The notes under the pieces were generated by a model. That model did no database searches. It was not told the origin of the DNA and saw nothing but the letters and a program-made list of their open reading frames with translations. From NCBI RefSeq assembly GCF_009914755.1, contig NC_060936.1: a stretch of DNA of 64,000 nt; one strand, given 5' to 3'. This stretch comes from the human T2T-CHM13v2.0 reference genome, Homo sapiens. A program made the translations under genes and the position numbers. Below, piece after piece: positions 2,961-57,860 of the stretch (the stretch's first letter is position 1; each line of letters begins with the position of its first letter).

Positions 2961-4599
2961 ATGAGGGAATTTCAAGGGTATATTACTACAGTTTGCCAAA
3001 AAAGAAAGAAGAGAGTGAGTGATCATGGAAAGGGCTAGAAAAGTTCACTTCGGTCTTGGTAGAAGGGAACACACAGCCCTGAAAGAGTGGGACTAAAATA
3101 ATAAACTCAGCATTTCTCTTTTTTAAATGGCCTAGGAATAGGGAACAACTCACCTGGGGTTAACAGAGCCAGGTGAGCTCAGAAGTTTTGACCCTGTGTA
3201 AAAATCCCTGATAAAAGACTGGTACCTCAGGCAAGAATATAGGGCCTGAGTGTTCAGGTTTTTACTGTTACTAATTTTAATAAAGATGTACATAATAGAG
3301 TAAGCATTTGTGACAGCAGTATAGACTATCTAATTAGTAACAATGGTTTAAAAAGTAGATCATTAGCTATTCATAAAGCTCTTTAGCAGTTATACAAAGC
3401 AGAGGGGAAAAAAATCCCCTACACAGTATAATCCACTTAATTTTAAGGAGATGCGAGCTAATGACTAATTCTAATTTCTGTGAGGATAATGATGTGTAAC
3501 AGACTGAGCTAGTCTAGAAAACTGATGGGTACTAGTTTAATTCTCAACTATCACGTCTGGAAAGCTAAAAACGCCATTTCTCAGATGCCCTTTAAGTTAG
3601 CTAGGTTTATATATCTACCGCCAACTCTCTGCAATAAGTGTGTATTTTCAAAGAAATAAGATGAGCAGACCTCCCCCAACACCGGCCAAAGTATGGAAAC
3701 ATAATTTTAAAAATTCATGAAAGTTCTGAAATCTGCATCTTCAGCACTCCATGGACACGGGCACCGTTTACTCTTATGCCAACTAGCTGCTCTTAAAATT
3801 GAACTACCCCGATGTACAAGAATCTGAGGGTTGTACATCACCCTGATGTACAAGAATCTGAGGGCTGTAGCTCTCTAAAAACAGCTACAGAAACATAAAT
3901 CATAATTTATACTCTTTCAAATACGTGACTTGCTTCTGAAAGTGAGATCTCATGTAAATCAAAAATTATGTAATTATTTAAAATCTCTAAAATATTTTGA
4001 ACTCCAAACCATTTGGTGATGTGAAATGAGCATAGGCTTCAGTTGCCATCTGATCCCAAGTGCCCAATCTGAGACTGAATGCCTGAATTTCCTAGAACCT
4101 TTTTGTGTTTTTTTCCCACTATGGATGTAATTAATGTGCTCATATGTATTTTCACATCTGCTACTGAAAATCTGACAAGTTTAGTCTCACAAGACCTTTT
4201 AAATAAATAAATAAATAAATAAAAATCTGAGGAAGCAGCTCAGAAAATTTTCAACAAAGTTCCCCCCACCCCTCACGACCCGCCACCCACCAACCTGGAT
4301 CTTTTACTACATGAGAATAAACTAAATCTTTATACTCTACTTTAACTGCTTCCAAATATCATCAAAATGAGTGGAGCTAGAGACATGAGCTCAAAGAACG
4401 TTCACAATCTTGATCGTTTTCTCTGTCACATCAGATGACAAGCTTGATTGGCAAAGGTCACAAACTGGCTTTGCGAATTATGCAATGTGTGTGAGACATA
4501 CCAACTGCCTTTTTAGTGGGATGGAATAAACTGTTAAAATGTTCCTTCTTTCACTGAAGGTGTTCCAACTGAAACCAAGGGAGTCAGCTGTGTTATGTT

Positions 4600-4750
4600 T
4601 AGATGAAAGTGTAATCATCTGGGGTGTTTAATTAAAATACAGATTCCTGCATGTCAGAGGGAATCCAAATTTCTGAGGGTGCATCTCAGGAAAGCACATC
4701 TTTTAATAAGCCCTCTATGTGATTATTAGGTACTCTATAAAGTCTGAGAT
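4600..4750. mobile_element. MER5-family (hAT-Charlie) DNA transposon fragment
   Basis: AATCATCTGGGG...AAAATACAGATTCCTG...TTTTAATAAGCCCTC...AAAGTCTGAGA resembles the MER5 consensus. Confidence 0.6.
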
Positions 4751-4879
4751 ATAATATTTTAGATAGTTCATGAGTGTTATATTGTTAAAGAAAACAAACA
4801 AAACAAAAATGTCTTAAAAGATATACAACGTTGTATTTGATTGAAGGGCTACATACTAGGTGCTCTTGATTTAGAGTAA

Positions 4880-5040
4880 CTTGAGGGGGGTGAGGGATAA
4901 AAGATGACAAATTGGGTACAGTGTATACTACTTGGGTGATGGGTGCACCAAAATCTCACAAATCACCACTAAAGAACTTACTCATGTAACCAAACACCCC
5001 CTGTTCCCCAATAACCTATGGAAATTAAAAACAAAAAAGA
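4880..5040 (+). mobile_element. L1 3' end (L1MA/L1PB-type)
   Basis: GGGTGATGGGTGCACCAAAATCTCACAAATCACCACTAAAGAACTTACTCATGTAACCAAA followed by an A-rich tail. Confidence 0.85.
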
Positions 5041-5074
5041 TAAGAAAAGTTAAGTGTATTGAGTGCACAGAATA

Positions 5075-5555
5075 CTGTTGATTGTCTCTTTCAATTGCCA
5101 TTCCAATATTCTCCTAGCATATCCCTCTAAACTATCATGGCTGGAAAGCTAAAAACTCCATTTATCAGACGCCCTTTAAGTTATCCAGGGTTGTAGATGG
5201 GACTTCGGTTCTGCCAATTAGGCGTGACTGCAAGATCTGATATGGGAAGGAAATACTCGAGAAGACAGCCTGGCTGTGGGCATGCATTTTATTGGCTTAG
5301 TTGGTACTGCGGGCAGCAAGACCCTCCAGTCAGCAGCAGTAACAGCTTTCTGCACTGGCCGCAACATATTTACAGACTGTAGTGGACTTAAGTTCTGAGT
5401 GCTGGGAGTGTTCTGGAAGCTCAGCTTGCAGTCTGCTCCTACGGCCCTTCCAAAAATTCCACAGGCCATCAAATGCACTTCAATATACTCTTTGAAGTAT
5501 ATTCCAGGTTTCAATCAGGCAGAGTAGACTATATTGTCCAAAATTAAATCCTAAG
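5075..5555 (+). mobile_element. LTR33-like ERVL solo LTR
   Basis: GCTGGAAAGCTAAAAACTCCATTT...GGTTCTGCCAATTAG motif typical of LTR33. Confidence 0.6.
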
Positions 5556-5763
5556 CAAAACAAGGGGAAAAAGCCAAGTAATTAAGCATTTATTTCTCCT
5601 AAGGGTGGTCAAAATTTTCCTTAGAAATTTCCCATTAGTGTTTCACAATTCAAGTTGAAAAATAAGGATTATTTTAAATTTTAAAAAAGACCAATTTTTT
5701 ATAGGCAATCCATGAGAGTTTAATACAATTCTACCAGATGAAACACAGCAAAGCATTTACAGT

Positions 5764-5928
5764 TGGCATGCCTGGGACAAGTTCCTCTGGTAACAATAAA
5801 CTTCAATTGCAGATTCATTGACATGCCTGAGACACGTTTCTCTGGTAACAATACTCTACAACTGCAGGTTCAATGACATGCCCAGGACTTGTTCTTCTGA
5901 TAACAATATATGTCAATTGCAGGCTCAC
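5764..5928. promoter_or_regulatory. Three-copy 55-bp tandem array of p53-family response elements, each with an AACAAT SOX motif (intronic enhancer)
   Basis: Units start at 5764, 5819 and 5874: TGGCATGCCT-G-GGACAAGTTC, TGACATGCCT-G-AGACACGTTT, TGACATGCCC-A-GGACTTGTTC (RRRCWWGYYY pairs, 1-nt spacer). KITLG intron 1 is known to contain a functional polymorphic p53 element. Confidence 0.85.
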
Positions 5929-6641
5929 TGTTTATGAAGATGATGACATTTAAAACAGAGAACGTTATCAAAGTAAGATATGGATTCAAATCCTGGTGCT
6001 GTCACGTGTTGTAATCCAGAGCAAATTATGTAACCTCTCTGAGACTCAGTTTTCTTGTGATGATAACATGTTTTTGCAGTTTTGAAAAGATTACATAAGA
6101 CAATGTTATGTAAAGCACTCACAAGCCAATTGGCAAATCTATGAGAACATTACATGACTATTAATGCTCTAATTATTATTTTGTTAATTACAGTTAATAG
6201 TTAACTATAGCTAGTTCAGTTAGCTACAGTTAAACCACAGTTGATGCTACAGTTATAATTTTATCTTTATTGATCCCTTAAATATTCTAAAAGCTTTGCT
6301 AACAGTAAATGACTATACAATCATTCACAATACAACCCATTTTTTAAAAAATGTGTTTTCTTTTTAATTGCACATAATAATTGTAAACAATCTCATTTAT
6401 CCTCTGCCTCCCCATAGATTAAAGATCAGCCCTGGAAAGTGAAATAAAGAGGTTGTGAAACTGCCCCCTGAACTTGGATTTGGATCCGCTCTTCCAAGCA
6501 GGCAGGCTCTTTTCTACCTAGTATAAAAGTGAGGCAAAAATTGTTTGGGCAACAGGTGAATGTTAACCTAAATAGCAAAGTTTCAAAAGTCAACTTCAGC
6601 TTCACTAATATATCCAAAACAGCTTTAGAAAACAGTGTGTT

Positions 6642-6971
<330 letters not shown>

Positions 6972-7279
6972 TTACTCATGCACAGAGAAGTGGTATAGAG
7001 GAGGGGGTTGGAAAACATCAACCTTAGAATCAGACTGCCCATATCTTAATTTCTACTTTGACACAATCCTTATGGCCGTTGGAAAGTTATTTTATCATTC
7101 TGGGCCTCAGTTTCCTCATCTGTAAATGGGTGTAATAACAGAACTGACTTTATAGGTTTGCTGAGGATTAAATATAGTTATGTAAGTGGGCATTTAGTAT
7201 AGTACCTGTCAAATAATACACCTTTATAAATGTTTGCTATGGCTATTGTCATTGCTGTCTAGAACAAGCATTCCTAGTA

Positions 7280-8120
7280 ACATCATGCCCAAACTTGAAG
7301 AATGGTGGTTTAAGCCAAAAATCTGGGCACTATCCTTGATTCTTCCCAGTCCCCTATTTCCACATCTGATCATATTTTCTACCAGCAAAATAAATCTCAA
7401 AACTCATTTCTCTCCATTTCATCTTGTACAACTTTAGCTTGTGCTAAGCTCTTAGCACACTCTTACTGGAAGATTACAGGGATCCTCTAAATAGCCTTCT
7501 TTGCTTTCAGACTTATTACTCACAATAGTATCTTCTTCTGGGAATATATAAAACATGATCACTACCTGCTTAAAATCTCCCAATGCCTTCCCATTACATT
7601 TACAGTAAGACTCCAACTCCTAATCAAGGCCTACAGAGACCTTCAGAAGACAGACTTGTCCAACTCCATGTTTACGCCTTAGTAACCTTTATCTTCCCAC
7701 CATGCTCTAGCCACACTGGCCTCCTTTATGTTCCTGAAATACCTGGAAGGTAATTCCTGCCTCAAGCCCTTTGTACTTGCTGCTGCCAGTTTTCTCCTTT
7801 TTGGGCTTTGCCAATGGTAAGTTGTTCTCATCATTCAGGACTCAGTTCAAATATCACCTTCTCAGAGAAGCCTTCCCAGGTAACCTGTCTTAAGGAGCAC
7901 CTCTTATCACATCACATCACAGTTTTGCTTTCCCTTAAGCACTTTTCATTCTCAGAAATTATTTTGATTACCCAATTAGTTTACTCTTATCATCTGTTCC
8001 TCCCAACAAGAATATACATGGTATAAGAATGAGGATTATATTATTCTTATCCGTCATTCTTACCTCTAGCACCTTGATTTGGTCCTTTCTCATAGTACAT
8101 AATCCTCCATATTTGTGGAT
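7280..8120 (+). mobile_element. L2 LINE 3' portion
   Basis: CTCAGTTCAAATATCACCTTCTCAGAGAAGCCTTCCC and CTGCCTCAAGCCCTTTGTACTTGCTG are L2 hallmarks. Confidence 0.7.
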
Positions 8121-9574
8121 TGTATGTATTGCTAACTGCTACTGAATTGCTCATAAAAGTTCTCCTTCAATAAAATTCTCTTTTATATGGTACAGACCAA
8201 GGTACTGGCACTATCTAAATTGTGTTACTAGAGAATAAACCCAGGTACATATAATGGGGCAGAGATGAAGGCTGGACAATGTACAATTCAATCCTCAGCA
8301 GCTGGTTTCCATATTTACACAATAGAATTGCAACATCGCCAACCAGTTTTGCTTATTATCTGTTTCTTACACTTGACTGTGAGCACCATAAGGTGCCATA
8401 TGGACTTTCAGTCCCTCCCTGTTTTGTCAGACTGACTAAGGCAATGGCAGGTGTGAAGAAGCCCCTCGTAAATATATTTAGAATGAATGAGTGAAGGATA
8501 AACAGGAGGATTTTGTTCATCAGTTGGGTATAAACCATTGTCATCCTTCTCACTCTTAGGCTCAATAACTGCTAAATTCAAATAGTGACGATTAGCTAAA
8601 TGCTTCTCAGTTTGAACTTTTAACCATTTTCTTTGTACCTTTAATACTTCCCTAGGTCCATGTAAGTGGAAAACTAGGCTATAAAACCATGAGTAGACTA
8701 CAAGCTCCAAGAAGGGCAGGGACAACGTAAATAGACAATTTTAATGAATGAACAATCATTGAAAAATGCTTCTCCTGGTAGATGTGGCCCAAAATCGAAG
8801 GGCTGACCTGGCTATAAAATCCCCAGAGCTCCCTTTCTGAAGAAACTACGTAAGTATAAAGTGGAGTTTCTTTCCTTTATTGACAAAAAGGGGCATATTA
8901 AAAAAGCGAAAACACTGAAAGTATCACACAGAGCTGAAATGTAGACACTGTCCTGCAGTAAGTTCACTGGAAGTCTCTGAGAAGTCAACAATTCCATATA
9001 CTGCTTTATTTAGAATTTATTGTAATACGCAACCATAAATTTTTTATTTCCCCAATGAGTTGCAATCCATTAACATTTCTAAAGTAGCCATTCATAAAAA
9101 TTATTCATGGTGATTCAGCATTCAAAATGCATGCAAAGAATAAGATTTCACTCAGGGAAGACATACCCAGAAGTGATGACATGGGTTAAGCTTTTAAATG
9201 CTAATCTTATCTCTTCCCAAAGCATTGGTTGACTCTTATCTATCTGTCATCTTTTCTAAAGCAGGCAAAACAATGTTCATAAAACTGAATCCCTTTCCAG
9301 ACTCATTCCTACTTTGACCAAAACAAAACCAGCTACCTTTTCTTCAGGGACACACTGGCATAGTGTTGATGTTCCCCTATCATGCAACTTGTTTGCAAGA
9401 AACAGAAAGTCGCATGCCAGACTACTCATGAGCTGATTCAATGACACTTCATCCCTCCCCCAAAATAGGCTGCATCATCACATTTTCATGCTAATAATCA
9501 TGACTAAGTGGCAAGCTCTTTTATTCCAATTGTTTATCATGAGATCCATGGAATTATCCTTAGCATTCTCTCTA

Positions 9575-21500: not shown

Positions 21501-24500
21501 GGCTGCAGTCAATTGTTTCTATGAAACAGAGCCTATACAAAACAACCCTGAAAGCAGCATATATTATAAAAATATCTTGGTGTTCCCTCAACTTGTTTTG
21601 TAAATTGTTCTGTCTACACACGTGACTAAGACCAAGAACAGTGTGTAAGACCAAGAACAGTTTCTTGCAGCTGCTCATGATTTATGTGCTAGAAAGAAAG
21701 ATAAAAGATCACTCTTCAGAGATTTATATCCAAATGCCTTGCCCTAATTTACAAAAGGGAATAAAATTTACAAAAGGGAATAAAAATAATTTACAAAAGG
21801 GAACATTAAGATAATCCAGAAAAGAAAAATAAAAGTCTCAAACTAGCATAATGAAAAAAAAATGTCACTGCACGTTGCCTGGTAAAGACAACAAAGACAC
21901 CCCACAGAAATGAATGCATGGCCTCACTCAGAAAAGCAAGTGCGAGAACATTAGGGATGGGAAACTAACCAAGTCTCTTTAGTCCAAAATAAAATAAAAT
22001 AAAATGAAATAATTCCTTAGAATCATACAAGGAGAACTTAGCAAGAGTGTAGAAATATGAAACTGAGTCAGCGATAAAGATAATATTTCCATTTTCCATT
22101 TCTATTTTCTATTCTAATTATCTCATTCATTTGTACTTTAAAAGAAAAACCTTCAAAAACGTAGCACCTCTTAAGCCCACATATCACCTTTGTCTTCACA
22201 TATTCCTGGATTGATGTGTCTTAATTATAGTCTATAAACAGATATTAGCCTATCATGGGAGTCACCAAATCGACAGACGTAGATTTAGGAAAACTTGGTC
22301 TCTGTGCTTGGTTCATTAGGCATAATTTACCTGCAATAAGTCAGTTTTTCTCTGGCTTGTAAAAGTAGGCCAGCAGGCACTCTCTTCTCAGGAACAATAA
22401 ATTCAAACTGTACATATAGTAAGCTACTATGCTGGTATAAAGACACATATAAAATTTCATTTAGTCCTTAAAACCACCATGCGAGAAAAATCTTTATAAC
22501 TTTTATAATCATCATACAGATTACAAAAAACAGAAATCCCAAAAAGTTTAACAAATATTTGCCTAAGGTCATTTGTCTCATGAGTAGTAAAACAGGAATT
22601 AGAATCTAAGTCTTCAGAAGCTAGAACCTAGAATCCTTCTACCAACCATATTTTAGGTGTTTCTCATATATGCTCAGATATGGTTTATTCTCAGATATAA
22701 AGCGAAGGCCACATGTAGTGGAATTTGCCAATCCATGTAAAAAACCTCCAATACCCACACTTGCTATTTGAGTGAGAAATTTTTATGTGATTTATGGTGA
22801 TGGAAACATTTCAGTCACCTATTATTAAAAAAAAAATGTGACCCAGAATTTGCTATCTTCAAATCAGCAGTTAGACGTAAATAAAATTTAGCAATTTTAA
22901 TTGGTTTGGCCCAGACTTTCAGATTTCCATATGGTTATTTTCCTTGTTTTATGTTAAATGTAATCAACTTAGCACTTGGGTTTTAAAGTCTTGGCAGAAT
23001 GTATCAATTAAAAGCTACATAAATTGGAATTATTCAAAGCATACATTCCAAATTGAGTGATCTTAAGGACAAGACTAAAAAAATGCTCTTTTCATAAGTA
23101 TGTTAATTTTCTTCTACAAAGTAAACTTGCATCATCACCCACATGACAAACTTCATACAGACATAAAAGAGATATTTTCTTTGGAGTAGTGAAAATTAGC
23201 ATTCTATTTGCTTATTCTCTGAGAGTTAGTATGCCTAAAATGGCCTTTTTTACATTGTTTGCAAGATCAATCTTTCTTATCTCAGTATTTCTGAAATTGA
23301 CAGGAGTTATGACACTTCTCACAAACCATCCCCAAACTAAAATGTAAGCACAACATTGATAAATGTAACACCAGGCACATTAAGCTAATGGCACTTTTAA
23401 CCAAATCTTAATCAGTGTTGCAAAATATGGTGCCTTGATTGTTATCCAATATGGTGTATCAGAATATTATGTTTAAAAAATAGTTACACATTGAAAGAGA
23501 TGTTTTTTCTAAGCCCAAGCCACAAACACCTCTAGAAAACTGTAAAACCACACAATCTGAATAAAATAAAATCAAACAAATCTGAAAAATTCAAAAGACA
23601 TTCATTTCTGTAGAACTGTGCTTAAATTTATTGCCTGTGTCATTATATTGGAAATACTGAAGTGTACCAACATGCTAAATGAATGAATCATTCATCAAAC
23701 CCCAAGTGGTTGTTGATGGAATTTTCACACTTACTTAGCTTGACGGAAAGGCCAGAATACCTGGAGTCCCCATGATTCTTGGAGAGCTGTGTAATTCAAA
23801 TCAAACCCCATTTTAAAATATTACTATAAATTTTTTTTATATGTGGGGTAGTAGGAGAGTACAGAACAAGTTGCTTTATAATAGAACCATGGTATTGATG
23901 CCATGTTTATAAATGACTATTTAAACTACTAAATATTAATAGATATTCTTCCCTGGTGAGGATAACATTAGAATCAGAACAATCGATCCTATTTCTTAAT
24001 GTCCAATTTACATAGGCTACCTTCCATCCATGCAGCATTGCACAGAAAATGTCTTTGTAATTTTTGGATTAGAAAATTTAACAATATGAAAGATCTAATC
24101 CCCTCCTCCATTTCTGCAGATTATTTTATTGATTTTGGGCTATTTCCAGTGTCCCCTTTTTCAGTGACTGTGGAATCGCTAGAAGTATTCTTAAAAAAAA
24201 CCTTGAAGGTCATTAGATCCTAGGCAATGAATGCCTTCATTCAACAAGGGTACTGCCCTCCTTTGCCTACAAGCCGTTTAACATCAGCAAGTTCCCCCAA
24301 AGGGCCTGCACTTTAACTTGTGTGATGTGTGACCGAACAGGTCACATATCTAAAATACTTAGCTTTCTCAAATTTCTCTGGTCGGCAGCACTGAGTCACT
24401 AATGCCACAGTCACAATGTTTCAGACTAGATTGACCTCTTTCTAGTTTTCAATGGAATTATTCCATGTAATCCGATTTACACAGCCATTTAATCAAAGCG

Positions 24501-26197: not shown

Positions 26198-26212
26198 TTG
26201 TGTCTTCTTCAT
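26198..26212 (-). CDS. KITLG: KIT ligand (stem cell factor) exon 1 coding portion, MKKTQ (start of signal peptide); rest of CDS lies beyond the left edge of the window
   Basis: Minus strand reads ...CCTTTCCTT ATG AAG AAG ACA CAA | GTGAGT. MKKTQ is the N-terminus of SCF (MKKTQTWILTCIYLQ...). It is followed by a consensus donor and lies inside a CpG island, and the upstream sequence matches the human KITLG 5'UTR as I recall it. Confidence 0.96.
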
Positions 26213-26322
26213 AAGGAAAGGCAGCGCTGCGATCCAGCACAAACAGTGGTGTGGCGACTCCGTTTAGCTGTTCTGGAGCTCCAGCATATTGCACGAACAG
26301 CGGCGGCAGATAGTCCACGCAT
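26209..26322 (-). other. Upstream ORF 1 (37 aa, MRGLSAAAVRAICWSSRTAKRSRHTTVCAGSQRCLSL); TGA overlaps the KITLG ATG
   Basis: ATG at 26322-26320 is open to TGA at 26211-26209. The main ATG is 26212-26210 (ATGA). The ORF is seen in sequence; translation is not shown. Confidence 0.7.
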
Positions 26323-26407
26323 TGGGTAGCCCGAGCGCAGCGCCCTCTCCACTGTCCCTGCTTCCCGCAGCGCTTCTAGTCTCGGCGCGAGGCGGCGAGC
26401 GAAGCCC
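26213..26407 (-). other. KITLG: KITLG 5'UTR (exon 1); TSS approximately 26395-26407
   Basis: Minus strand GGGCTTCGCTCGCCGCCTCGCGCCGAGACTAGAAGCGCTG...CCTTTCCTT matches the recalled mRNA 5' end. A TATA box sits ~21-27 nt further upstream. Confidence 0.88.
26264..26287 (-). other. Upstream ORF 2 (7 aa, MLELQNS), nested in uORF1 in another frame
   Basis: AAT ATG CTG GAG CTC CAG AAC AGC TAA on minus strand; A at -3 gives an adequate Kozak context. Confidence 0.7.
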
Positions 26408-48720: not shown

Positions 48721-49848
48721 TTCTTTATTATTATTATTTTTTTTTTTTATTTTTCTTTAAGTTCTAGGGTACATGTGCACAACGTGCAGGTTTGTTACAT
48801 ATCCATACATGTGCCATGTTGGTGTACTGCACCCATTAAATTGTCATTTACATTGGGTATATCTCTCCTAATGCTATCCCTTCCCCCTCCCCCCACCCCC
48901 CTGCAGGCCCCGGTATGTGATGTTCCCCACCCTGTGTCCATGTGTTCTTATTGTTCAGTTCCCACCTATGAGTGAGAACATGCAGTGTTTGCTTTTCTGT
49001 CCTTGCTATAGTTTGTTCAGAATGATGGTTTCCAGCTTCATCCATGTCCCTATAAAGGACATGAATGCATCCTTTTTTATGGCTACATAGTATTCCATGG
49101 TGTATATGTGCCACATTTTCTTAATCCAGTCTATCATTGATGGACATTTGGGTTGGTTCCAAGTCTTTGCTATTGTGAATAGTGCCGCAATAAACATACA
49201 TGTGCATGTGTCTTTATAGCAGCATGATTTATAATCCTTTGGGTATATGCCCAGTAATGGGATGCCTGGGTCAAATGGTATTTCTAGTTCTAGATCCTTG
49301 AGGAATCGCCACACTGTCTTCCACAATGGTTGAACTAGTTTACCGTCCCACCAACGTGTAAAAGCGTTCCTATTTCTCCACATCCTCTCTGGCACCTGTT
49401 GTTTCCTGACTTTTTAATGATCACCATTCTAACTGGTGTGAGATGGTATCTCATTGTGGTTTTGATTTGCATTTCTCTGATGGCCAGTGATGATGAGCAT
49501 TTTTTCATGCGTCTGTTGGCTGCATAAATGTCTTCTTTTGAGAAGTGTCTGTTCATATCCTTCACCTATTTTTTGATGGGGTTGTTTGATTTTTTCTTGT
49601 AAATTTGTTTAAGTTCTTTGTAGATTCTGGATATTAGCCCATTGTCAGATGGGTAGATTGTAAAAATTTTCTCCCATTCTGTAGGTTTAAGTTCTTTGTA
49701 GATTCTGGATATTAGCCCATTGTCAGACGGGTAGATTGTAAGAGTTTTCTCCCATTCTGTAGGTTGCCTGTTCACTTCGATGGTAGTTTCTTCTGCTGTG
49801 CAGAAGCTCTTTCGTTTAATTAGATCCCATTTGTCAATTTTGGCTTTT
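48721..49848 (-). mobile_element. 5'-truncated L1PA (L1PA6/7-like) with internal 78-bp tandem duplication
   Basis: ORF2 C-terminal peptides ([33 protein letters not shown]) and 3'UTR/poly-T. Confidence 0.95.
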
Positions 49849-57800: not shown

Positions 57801-57842
<42 letters not shown>

Positions 57843-57860
57843 AAGATAGATAGATAGATA
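57801..57860. repeat. (GATA)10 GAAA (GATA)4 tetranucleotide STR
   Basis: Read directly. Confidence 0.97.

What the first reader, a model, noticed from the sequence alone, without database searches (positions are those of the whole stretch)
5764..5928. Intronic p53 enhancer of KITLG is built from a triplicated 55-bp module pairing a p53 site with a SOX motif
Seen: three units with an exact 55-bp period: TGGCATGCCTGGGACAAGTTCCTCTGGTAACAATAAACTTCAATTGCAGATTCAT / TGACATGCCTGAGACACGTTTCTCTGGTAACAATACTCTACAACTGCAGGTTCAA / TGACATGCCCAGGACTTGTTCTTCTGATAACAATATATGTCAATTGCAGGCTCAC. The units have diverged substantially but have no indels. Invariant blocks include the CATGCC core of half-site 1, the C..G of half-site 2, TAACAATA and TGCAG. 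Established: RRRCWWGYYY x2 is the p53/p63/p73 element, AACAAT is the SOX/SRY HMG-box core, and a polymorphic p53 element (rs4590952) in KITLG intron 1 is linked to testicular germ-cell tumour risk; from memory it lies ~20 kb from the TSS, which fits this position. Inference: the known single-SNP element is one unit of an old tandem array. Its retained p53+SOX grammar and roughly five-helical-turn spacing could make p53-family induction of KITLG cooperative and lineage-gated (SOX9, SOX17/SOX2 or SOX10 cells). I do not know whether the repeat architecture or SOX component has been described.
Basis: partly seen in the sequence, partly recalled or inferred. Interest (0 to 1): 0.85.

Follow-up and report, generated by a model that had tools for sequence, protein, structure and literature searches.

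The report
Triplicated p53 site in KITLG enhancer
A 165-base stretch in the first intron of KITLG is an old three-fold tandem copy of a 55-base unit, each copy with a p53 binding site, inside the known p53-controlled enhancer linked to testicular cancer risk; the proposed SOX partner site is no better supported than chance.

Summary
Window 5764-5928 holds three head-to-tail 55-bp units with no indels (TRF period 55, score 187). Pairwise identity is 45, 42 and 39 of 55, and 37 of 55 columns are invariant. Each unit carries a near-consensus p53-family element with the same 1-bp spacer and all core C/G bases intact (1, 2 and 1 mismatches). No other site within about 1.3 kb on either side comes close. 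The array is unique in the genome and is not masked as a repeat. It lies 20.5-20.6 kb into KITLG intron 1, inside a RefSeq enhancer feature. A preprint describes a p53-occupied cluster of about 1.3 kb in this intron, and deleting a 1-kb region there abolishes Nutlin induction of KITLG. Most likely the array is a cluster of three related p53 sites that forms the p53-responsive core of a known enhancer. I could not map rs4590952 to a base; recalled coordinates put it in unit 2. The SOX reading is weak. AACAAT occurs 1.33 times per kb, its invariant run is not unusual (P=0.53), and no paper I found links SOX to this element. A 55-bp period is 5.24 helical turns, so the sites are not in phase.

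The parts
5764..5818 (.). Tandem unit 1 (55 bp)
   Evidence: It is 45/55 identical to unit 2 and 42/55 to unit 3.
5819..5873 (.). Tandem unit 2 (55 bp)
5874..5928 (.). Tandem unit 3 (55 bp)
   Evidence: It is 39/55 identical to unit 2.
5764..5784 (.). p53-family response element 1: two decamers, 1-bp spacer, 1 mismatch (first base)
   Evidence: TGGCATGCCT g GGACAAGTTC.
5819..5839 (.). p53-family response element 2: 1-bp spacer, 2 mismatches (first base; C at a W position giving a CACG core). It holds the array's only CpG at 5835-5836.
   Evidence: By recalled coordinates only, this is the likeliest place of rs4590952.
5874..5894 (.). p53-family response element 3: 1-bp spacer, 1 mismatch (first base)
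   Evidence: TGACATGCCC a GGACTTGTTC.
5792..5797 (+). AACAAT (SOX/SRY-type HMG core) in unit 1, inside the invariant block TAACAATA
5847..5852 (+). AACAAT in unit 2
5902..5907 (+). AACAAT in unit 3. Here it is preceded by TGATAA, a WGATAR match at 5898.
5338..6537 (.). RefSeq functional element 'P300/CBP strongly-dependent group 1 enhancer', which contains the array

Best explanation
The 165-bp array is an ancient tandem triplication of a 55-bp unit that already carried a p53-family response element with a 1-bp spacer. All three copies have stayed close to the p53 consensus. Together they form a cluster of three related p53 sites that is the p53-responsive core of the known KITLG intron-1 enhancer. 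Each site alone should be sub-optimal, because even a 1-bp spacer lowers transactivation, so three sites within roughly one nucleosome length would raise p53 (and probably p63/p73) occupancy by number. Successive sites are offset by about a quarter turn, so they do not lie on one face of the helix. The published polymorphic element (rs4590952) is most likely one of the three units, probably unit 2, with the other two left intact. That would make the variant change the response in degree rather than switch it off. Shown here: the array, the three sites, their uniqueness in the region, and the enhancer annotation. Taken from papers: p53 occupancy and p53-dependent enhancer function of the surrounding 1-1.3 kb. 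Inferred: that all three units bind p53, that number compensates for the spacer, and which unit holds the SNP.
For: Array and units. One p53 site per unit, each with spacer 1, with 1/2/1 mismatches and 12/12 core C/G bases kept. In 4000-8500 the only other rows at <=3 mismatches (spacers 0-3) are a site at 5751 that reuses unit 1's first decamer and a 3-mismatch site at 7652. Spacerless sites with <=4 mismatches in 4400-7200 number two, both with core C/G mismatches. In the whole window there are 6 sites at <=2 mismatches (spacer 0/1), against a Markov-simulation mean of 6.2; 3 of the 6 are the array sites. Of the 7 variable columns in the 21-bp element, 1 is the spacer, 5 keep the R/Y/W class in all units, and 1 breaks it in one unit (read). 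A crude neutral simulation gives P=0.04-0.07 for a total of <=4 mismatches. RefSeq enhancer 5338-6537. Preprint 10.1101/835918 (section 10 read in full; passages of sections 11 and 27): a 1,355-bp SNP cluster in KITLG intron 1 is occupied by p53 in 20 of 30 ChIP-seq sets; 4 SNPs including rs4590952 lie in predicted p53 elements; deleting the 1-kb region in two cell lines removed Nutlin induction, and re-insertion rescued it. KITLG is a p53 target in 8 of 16 data sets (PMC5511239, passages). The effect of a spacer is described in PMC4470028 (passages).
Against: There are no unit-level binding data, so only one site may be occupied. Raw conservation of the element columns (14/21 invariant) equals that of the rest (23/34). 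Keeping all 12 core bases is not rare under the null (P=0.18), and the mismatch test is marginal. Even a 1-bp spacer reduces transactivation. A large reporter study concluded that functional TP53 enhancers have one canonical spacerless site and no site clusters (PMC4937571, abstract and passages). p53motifDB excludes spacer-containing motifs, yet cites rs4590952 as lying in a p53 element. That may mean the published element is defined differently from my three sites. PMC3287149 describes its resequenced KITLG fragment, which includes rs4590952, as 'introns 2 to 3'. I could not map rs4590952 with any tool, and no orthologous sequences could be reached.
Confidence: 0.65

Rival explanations
1. 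Composite p53 + SOX module. Each unit pairs a p53-family site with an HMG-box SOX site 7 bp away. A SOX factor (SOX2/17 in germ-cell tumours, SOX9 in Sertoli cells, SOX10 in melanocyte lineage) co-binds and restricts p53 induction of KITLG to certain lineages.
For: AACAAT is at the same offset in all 3 units, within the longest invariant block TAACAATA. For a pre-specified hexamer, the crude neutral model gives P=0.07 for survival in all three units. The array sits in an enhancer of a gene active in SOX-dependent tissues; that last point is established knowledge, not a call.
Against: The motif was chosen after seeing the data. The longest invariant run (8) is expected from 37/55 invariant columns (P=0.53). 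The hexamer occurs 85 times in 64 kb. Its three copies share one origin, so they count as one event. None of the searches KITLG+p53+SOX17 (11 papers at >=5 of 6 terms, none on this), KITLG+p63+SOX2 (0 papers) or KITLG+AACAAT (24 papers held, 22 listed; none, by title and start of abstract, is about a SOX site or this enhancer, so the term is probably in primer sequences, not opened) links SOX to the element. Other factors recognise overlapping cores: unit 3 reads as a GATA site, and DM-domain factors are a recalled possibility. The general model of TP53 enhancers needs no partner factors.
Confidence: 0.15
2. One live unit, two relics. Only the unit that carries rs4590952 is a working p53 element. 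The other two are decaying paralogues that contribute nothing measurable.
For: One SNP is reported to change p53 binding and KITLG expression (PMC4163669 passages; PMC12462388 passage). A single site is sufficient in reporter surveys. Units 2 and 3 have diverged (39/55 identical).
Against: All three sites remain within 1-2 mismatches with intact cores. By consensus count, units 1 and 3 are better than unit 2, the unit my recalled coordinate points to. Retention is marginally better than neutral.
Confidence: 0.17
3. Neutral tandem duplication, with p53 binding elsewhere. The array is a bystander, and the enhancer's p53 response comes from other predicted elements in the 1.3-kb cluster.
For: The preprint lists four SNP-bearing predicted elements spread over 1,355 bp, which is wider than the 165-bp array.
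Against: No other site in 4000-8500 comes near the consensus.
Confidence: 0.03

Closest known systems
The published KITLG intron-1 p53 enhancer and polymorphic p53 response element (rs4590952). The primary paper, Zeron-Medina et al. 2013 Cell, was not held; I know it only through citing papers.
   Same: Same gene, same intron, p53-bound, enhancer activity, several predicted p53 elements within about 1.3 kb. My three sites are the only strong candidates in that span.
   Different: The accessible texts speak of 'a' polymorphic element, or of four SNP-bearing predicted elements. None that I could read mentions a 55-bp tandem triplication, a shared 1-bp spacer or a SOX core.
Typical TP53 enhancer as defined by reporter surveys (PMC4937571; abstract and passages)
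   Same: A p53 tetramer site of two RRRCWWGYYY decamers drives the response.
   Different: That model has one canonical site, spacer 0 and no site clusters. Here there are three sites, each with spacer 1, in 165 bp.
Tandemly repeated or paired p53 elements in other target genes, such as the pentanucleotide microsatellite of TP53I3/PIG3 and the two adjacent elements of the MDM2 P2 promoter (recalled; no call)
   Same: More than one p53 site is packed into a short stretch, and in PIG3 the sites arise from repeated DNA.
   Different: Those are short-period repeats or two unrelated sites. Here a long (55-bp) unit was triplicated long ago and has diverged 18-29% without indels.
Transposon-borne p53 sites (ERV LTR families). 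Enrichment of p53 binding in LTR elements is stated in PMC12462388 (passages).
   Same: p53 sites multiplied by copying of DNA.
   Different: This array has no other copy in the genome and is not in the masked repeats. It was copied locally, not by transposition.

Membership tests
Canonical p53-family response element | Two RRRCWWGYYY decamers with few mismatches and intact core C and G | tested here: met
   Units 1/2/3 have 1/2/1 mismatches and 12 of 12 core C/G bases present.
Canonical p53-family response element | Spacer of 0 bp between decamers, the form bound in vivo in most surveys | tested here: not met
   All three sites have a 1-bp spacer. Papers state that even 1 bp lowers transactivation and that functional sites have N=0. 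The classical definition allows 0-13 bp.
Canonical p53-family response element | p53 occupancy in cells | not testable with these tools
   Known only at the level of the region: 20 of 30 ChIP-seq sets for the 1,355-bp cluster. Not resolved to units, and the supplementary tables were closed.
Canonical p53-family response element | p53-dependent activation of the linked gene | not testable with these tools
   Deleting and re-inserting the 1-kb region changes Nutlin induction of KITLG. The coordinates of the deletion were not available to me.
SOX/SRY HMG-box binding site | Core AACAAT (or close variant) | tested here: met
   Exact AACAAT at 5792, 5847 and 5902, but the core occurs 1.33 times per kb in the window.
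SOX/SRY HMG-box binding site | Conservation above neighbouring bases, or bound by a SOX protein | tested here: inconclusive
   Within the array, the longest invariant run is not unusual (P=0.53), and the pre-specified survival probability is P=0.07.
Tandem repeat (minisatellite-size unit) | Head-to-tail copies with a constant period | tested here: met
   Period 55, 2.9-3 copies, 0 indels.
Tandem repeat (minisatellite-size unit) | Copy-number variation between individuals | not testable with these tools
   Only one genome was available. Unit divergence of 18-29% argues against ongoing instability (inference).
Transposon-derived p53 site | Belongs to a dispersed repeat family | tested here: not met
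   A genome self-search with 291 bp finds only itself at E<=10. The array is not in the masked_repeat rows. The search skips very common words, so it is a lower bound.

The most novel reading that the evidence does not exclude
The 55-bp unit is a true composite element: a spacer-weakened p53-family site that needs a neighbouring HMG-box or DM-domain factor on the TAACAATA block to be productive. It was triplicated in early mammals and is kept as three copies offset by a quarter turn, so that at least one copy faces outward on a nucleosome. This would make the KITLG element an exception to the 'single site, no partners' rule for p53 enhancers. It would also tie two testicular-cancer risk pathways (p53-KITLG and a germ-line or Sertoli lineage factor) to the same 165 bp.
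Probability: 0.12. Interest if true: 0.65.

Novelty: new member of a known kind. Interest (0 to 1): 0.35.

Why it matters
The KITLG intron-1 element is one of the best-studied non-coding cancer-risk variants. If the polymorphic site is one of three related sites, the risk allele weakens one of three related p53 sites. It does not switch a single site on or off. That changes how its effect size, allele-specific ChIP signal and editing experiments should be read. It also gives a natural test case for two questions: can several spacer-weakened p53 sites substitute for one canonical site, and do flanking motifs matter? Both run against the prevailing 'one site, no partners' model. If the architecture is already described in the primary paper, which I could not read, the finding adds little.

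Tried and rejected
I tried to map rs4590952 to a base. Ten paper searches and passages from the papers that mention it give neither a coordinate nor the element's sequence. The primary paper and the journal version of the preprint are not held, and supplementary tables are closed. The RefSeq feature name carries no older-assembly coordinates. The mapping therefore rests on recall alone.

Orthologues: none of the available collections holds mammalian genomes, so unit number and motif conservation across species could not be tested.

A fourth, decayed unit: rejected. The flanks are unrelated and local alignments do not exceed shuffled controls.

A dispersed repeat or transposon origin: rejected.

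A structured RNA or coding reading: rejected. Rfam gives only a chance-level hit to a bacterial family over 5805-5954 (E=0.22), and the two ORFs that overlap 5700-5990 are 43 and 65 aa.

Spacerless alignments of the sites: none exists at <=4 mismatches inside the array.

Excess conservation of the SOX block: not found.

Same-face helical phasing: rejected by arithmetic.

One search was a script slip that printed a useless table. One search did the job properly.

Full report
1. The observation. Tandem Repeats Finder reports 5763-5922 with period 55, 2.9 copies, 77% matches, no indels and score 187. The repeat finder gives three 55-nt copies at 100/84/76% identity. Only four arrays in the whole 64-kb window reach TRF score 80. 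Pairwise identity is 45/55, 42/55 and 39/55, and 37 of 55 columns are invariant. The invariant runs include CATGCC, TAACAATA and TGCAG. The neighbouring 55-mers are unrelated (11-15 of 55 identical). Local alignment of each unit, on both strands, against 5000-5763 and 5929-6700 never exceeds the shuffled maxima. The array is therefore three units and no more.

2. What each unit carries. I scanned 4000-8500 for two RRRCWWGYYY decamers with spacers of 0-3 bp and at most 3 mismatches. The scan returns five rows. Three are the in-register sites of the three units: 5764-5784 with 1 mismatch, 5819-5839 with 2, and 5874-5894 with 1. One row (5751) reuses unit 1's first decamer. The last is a 3-mismatch site at 7652.

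All three unit sites share a 1-bp spacer, and all 12 core C/G bases are present. No spacerless site with <=4 mismatches lies in the array. In 4400-7200 only two poor ones exist (4440 and 4694), both with core mismatches. Over the whole window, 6 sites pass <=2 mismatches with spacer 0 or 1, which is what a first-order Markov model gives (mean 6.2 over 30 simulations). Three of the six are the array sites.

AACAAT sits at columns 29-34 of every unit (5792, 5847, 5902), 7 bp after the p53 element. The array's only CpG is 5835-5836, in the core of unit 2's second decamer.

3. Context. The array is 20,477-20,641 bp from the annotated KITLG TSS at 26405. It lies in intron 1, since exon 1 is 26198-26405 and no other exon is in the window (given annotation). 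It lies inside the RefSeq functional element 'P300/CBP strongly-dependent group 1 enhancer' at 5338-6537 and is not among the masked repeats. A 291-bp query around it finds only itself in the T2T genome at E<=10. Rfam and ORF listings give nothing meaningful.

4. What papers say. Preprint 10.1101/835918 (section 10 read in full; passages of sections 11 and 27) reports the following.
- The strongest testicular germ-cell tumour signal is a cluster of six linked variants spanning 1,355 bp in KITLG intron 1.
- The region is occupied by p53 in 20 of 30 ChIP-seq data sets.
- Four of the SNPs (rs7965365, rs3782180, rs4590952, rs4474514) lie in predicted p53 elements.
- Deleting the 1-kb region in two cell lines lowered KITLG expression and abolished Nutlin induction. 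Re-insertion rescued both.

Other papers add context:
- The G allele of rs4590952 is described as the stronger p53 site (PMC4163669, passages; PMC12462388, passage).
- KITLG counts as a p53 target in 8 of 16 data sets (PMC5511239, passages).
- PMC3287149 lists rs4590952 among SNPs of a ~6-kb resequenced KITLG fragment, which it calls 'introns 2 to 3'.

No text I could read gives the SNP's coordinate or the element's letters. The primary paper is not held, nor is the journal version of the preprint, and supplements are closed.

5. Where rs4590952 falls. No call shows this. The three array sites are the only near-consensus p53 sites anywhere in the span that a 1.3-kb cluster around them could cover. 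The published 'strong' element is therefore very probably one of them; this is inference. From memory only, I place the SNP near hg19 chr12:88,953,659. Using recalled KITLG end coordinates for hg19 against the T2T coordinates in the annotation, this lands at about window 5814-5841, which is on unit 2's element (5819-5839). There the reference has core G bases at 5825 and 5836, the latter in the CpG, and a G-to-A change at either would remove a core G. This is a lead, not a result.

One point against it: p53motifDB leaves out motifs with spacers yet cites this SNP as lying in a p53 element. The published element may therefore be drawn differently.

6. Is there selection on the motifs? Raw conservation does not single out the p53 element: 14 of 21 columns are invariant, against 23 of 34 elsewhere. 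The changes inside it are mostly harmless, though. Of the 7 variable columns, one is the spacer, five keep the purine/pyrimidine/weak class in all units, and one breaks it in unit 2 only.

I ran a crude null model: the majority unit as the starting sequence, a star tree, the observed number of changes per unit, and a transition fraction of 0.5-0.67. It gives P=0.04-0.07 for so few total mismatches, P=0.18 for keeping all 12 core bases, and P=0.07 for AACAAT surviving in all three units. The last figure applies to a motif picked after looking. The fair test is whether an invariant run of 8 is unusual given 37/55 invariant columns, and it is not (P=0.53). AACAAT or its complement occurs 85 times in the window, or 1.33 per kb. 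The three copies descend from one ancestral copy, so they are one event. The evidence is thus suggestive for retention of the p53 sites and absent for the SOX core.

7. Age. Kimura distances between units are 0.21, 0.29 and 0.39. With textbook mammalian neutral rates of roughly 1-2 x 10^-9 per site per year, the triplication would be of the order of 50-200 million years old. That predates primates and may go back to early placental mammals. This is inference, and no orthologue could be examined.

8. Geometry. At 10.5 bp per turn, 55 bp is 5.24 turns, an 86-degree step. At 10.2 bp per turn it is 5.39 turns, a 141-degree step. The period is simply the length of the duplicated unit. The array's 165 bp is about one nucleosome length. 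Staggered sites would leave one accessible in any rotational setting, but that is speculation.

9. Mechanism proposed. I propose a cluster of three related p53-family sites, each weakened by a 1-bp spacer. Papers state that even one base of spacer lowers transactivation, more so for TAp63 and TAp73 and not for deltaNp63 (PMC4470028, passages). Together the three sites would give the enhancer its p53 response. A variant in one unit would lower the response without abolishing it.

This architecture departs from the general picture of TP53 enhancers as single, spacerless sites without clusters or partner factors (PMC4937571, abstract and passages). That departure is the main reason the array is of some interest. 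The same paper is also the main general argument against needing either the extra sites or a SOX partner.

10. Rivals.
- The composite p53+SOX module (confidence 0.15) has only the post hoc motif in its favour.
- 'One live unit, two relics' (0.17) fits the single-SNP literature. It leaves unexplained why units 1 and 3 are at least as close to consensus as unit 2.
- A bystander array with p53 bound elsewhere (0.03) is contradicted by the lack of any other good site.

11. Novelty. The enhancer, its p53 dependence, the SNP and the presence of several predicted p53 elements are already known. The following are not mentioned in any text I could search or read: that the good sites are three paralogous copies of one 55-bp unit, that they share a 1-bp spacer, and that each carries an AACAAT core. 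The primary paper and all supplements were out of reach, so the architecture may be in print. I rate it a new member of a known kind (repeat-derived or clustered p53 elements) and of moderate interest.

Noticed in passing
window 6183-6260: A small cluster of ACAGTTA (exact at 6190, 6226, 6249) and five YAACNG (MYB-type core) matches on the minus strand within 60 bp. It lies about 260 bp from the array, inside the same RefSeq enhancer feature. ACAGTTA is not enriched window-wide (12 matches against 10.7 expected).
   Followed up: partly
window 6003-6008: A single CACGTG E-box in the enhancer feature, 75 bp downstream of the array.
   Followed up: no
window 5898-5903: In unit 3 the change from GGTAAC to GATAAC creates a WGATAR (GATA-type) match directly next to AACAAT. 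Units 1 and 2 lack it.
   Followed up: no
window 5859-5864: In unit 2 the change from CAATTG to CAACTG creates a YAACNG (MYB-type) core that units 1 and 3 lack.
   Followed up: no
window 6639-6970: An Alu-like element: a masked repeat with sub-threshold Metazoa_SRP and Alu-derived miRNA family hits, ending in a 42-base A run at 6922-6963.
   Followed up: no
window 49607-49765: A young tandem duplication of a 78-bp unit, 2.0 copies at 96% identity. I did not examine what it lies in.
   Followed up: no
window 57801-57860 and 21745-21803: A (GATA)15 microsatellite, and a 19-bp x 2.8 repeat in KITLG intron 1.
   Followed up: no
window 4694-4713: A weak spacerless p53-like 20-mer with 4 mismatches, two of them in core C/G. 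It might be one of the 'predicted p53 elements' of the published 1,355-bp cluster, but I could not check this.
   Followed up: no
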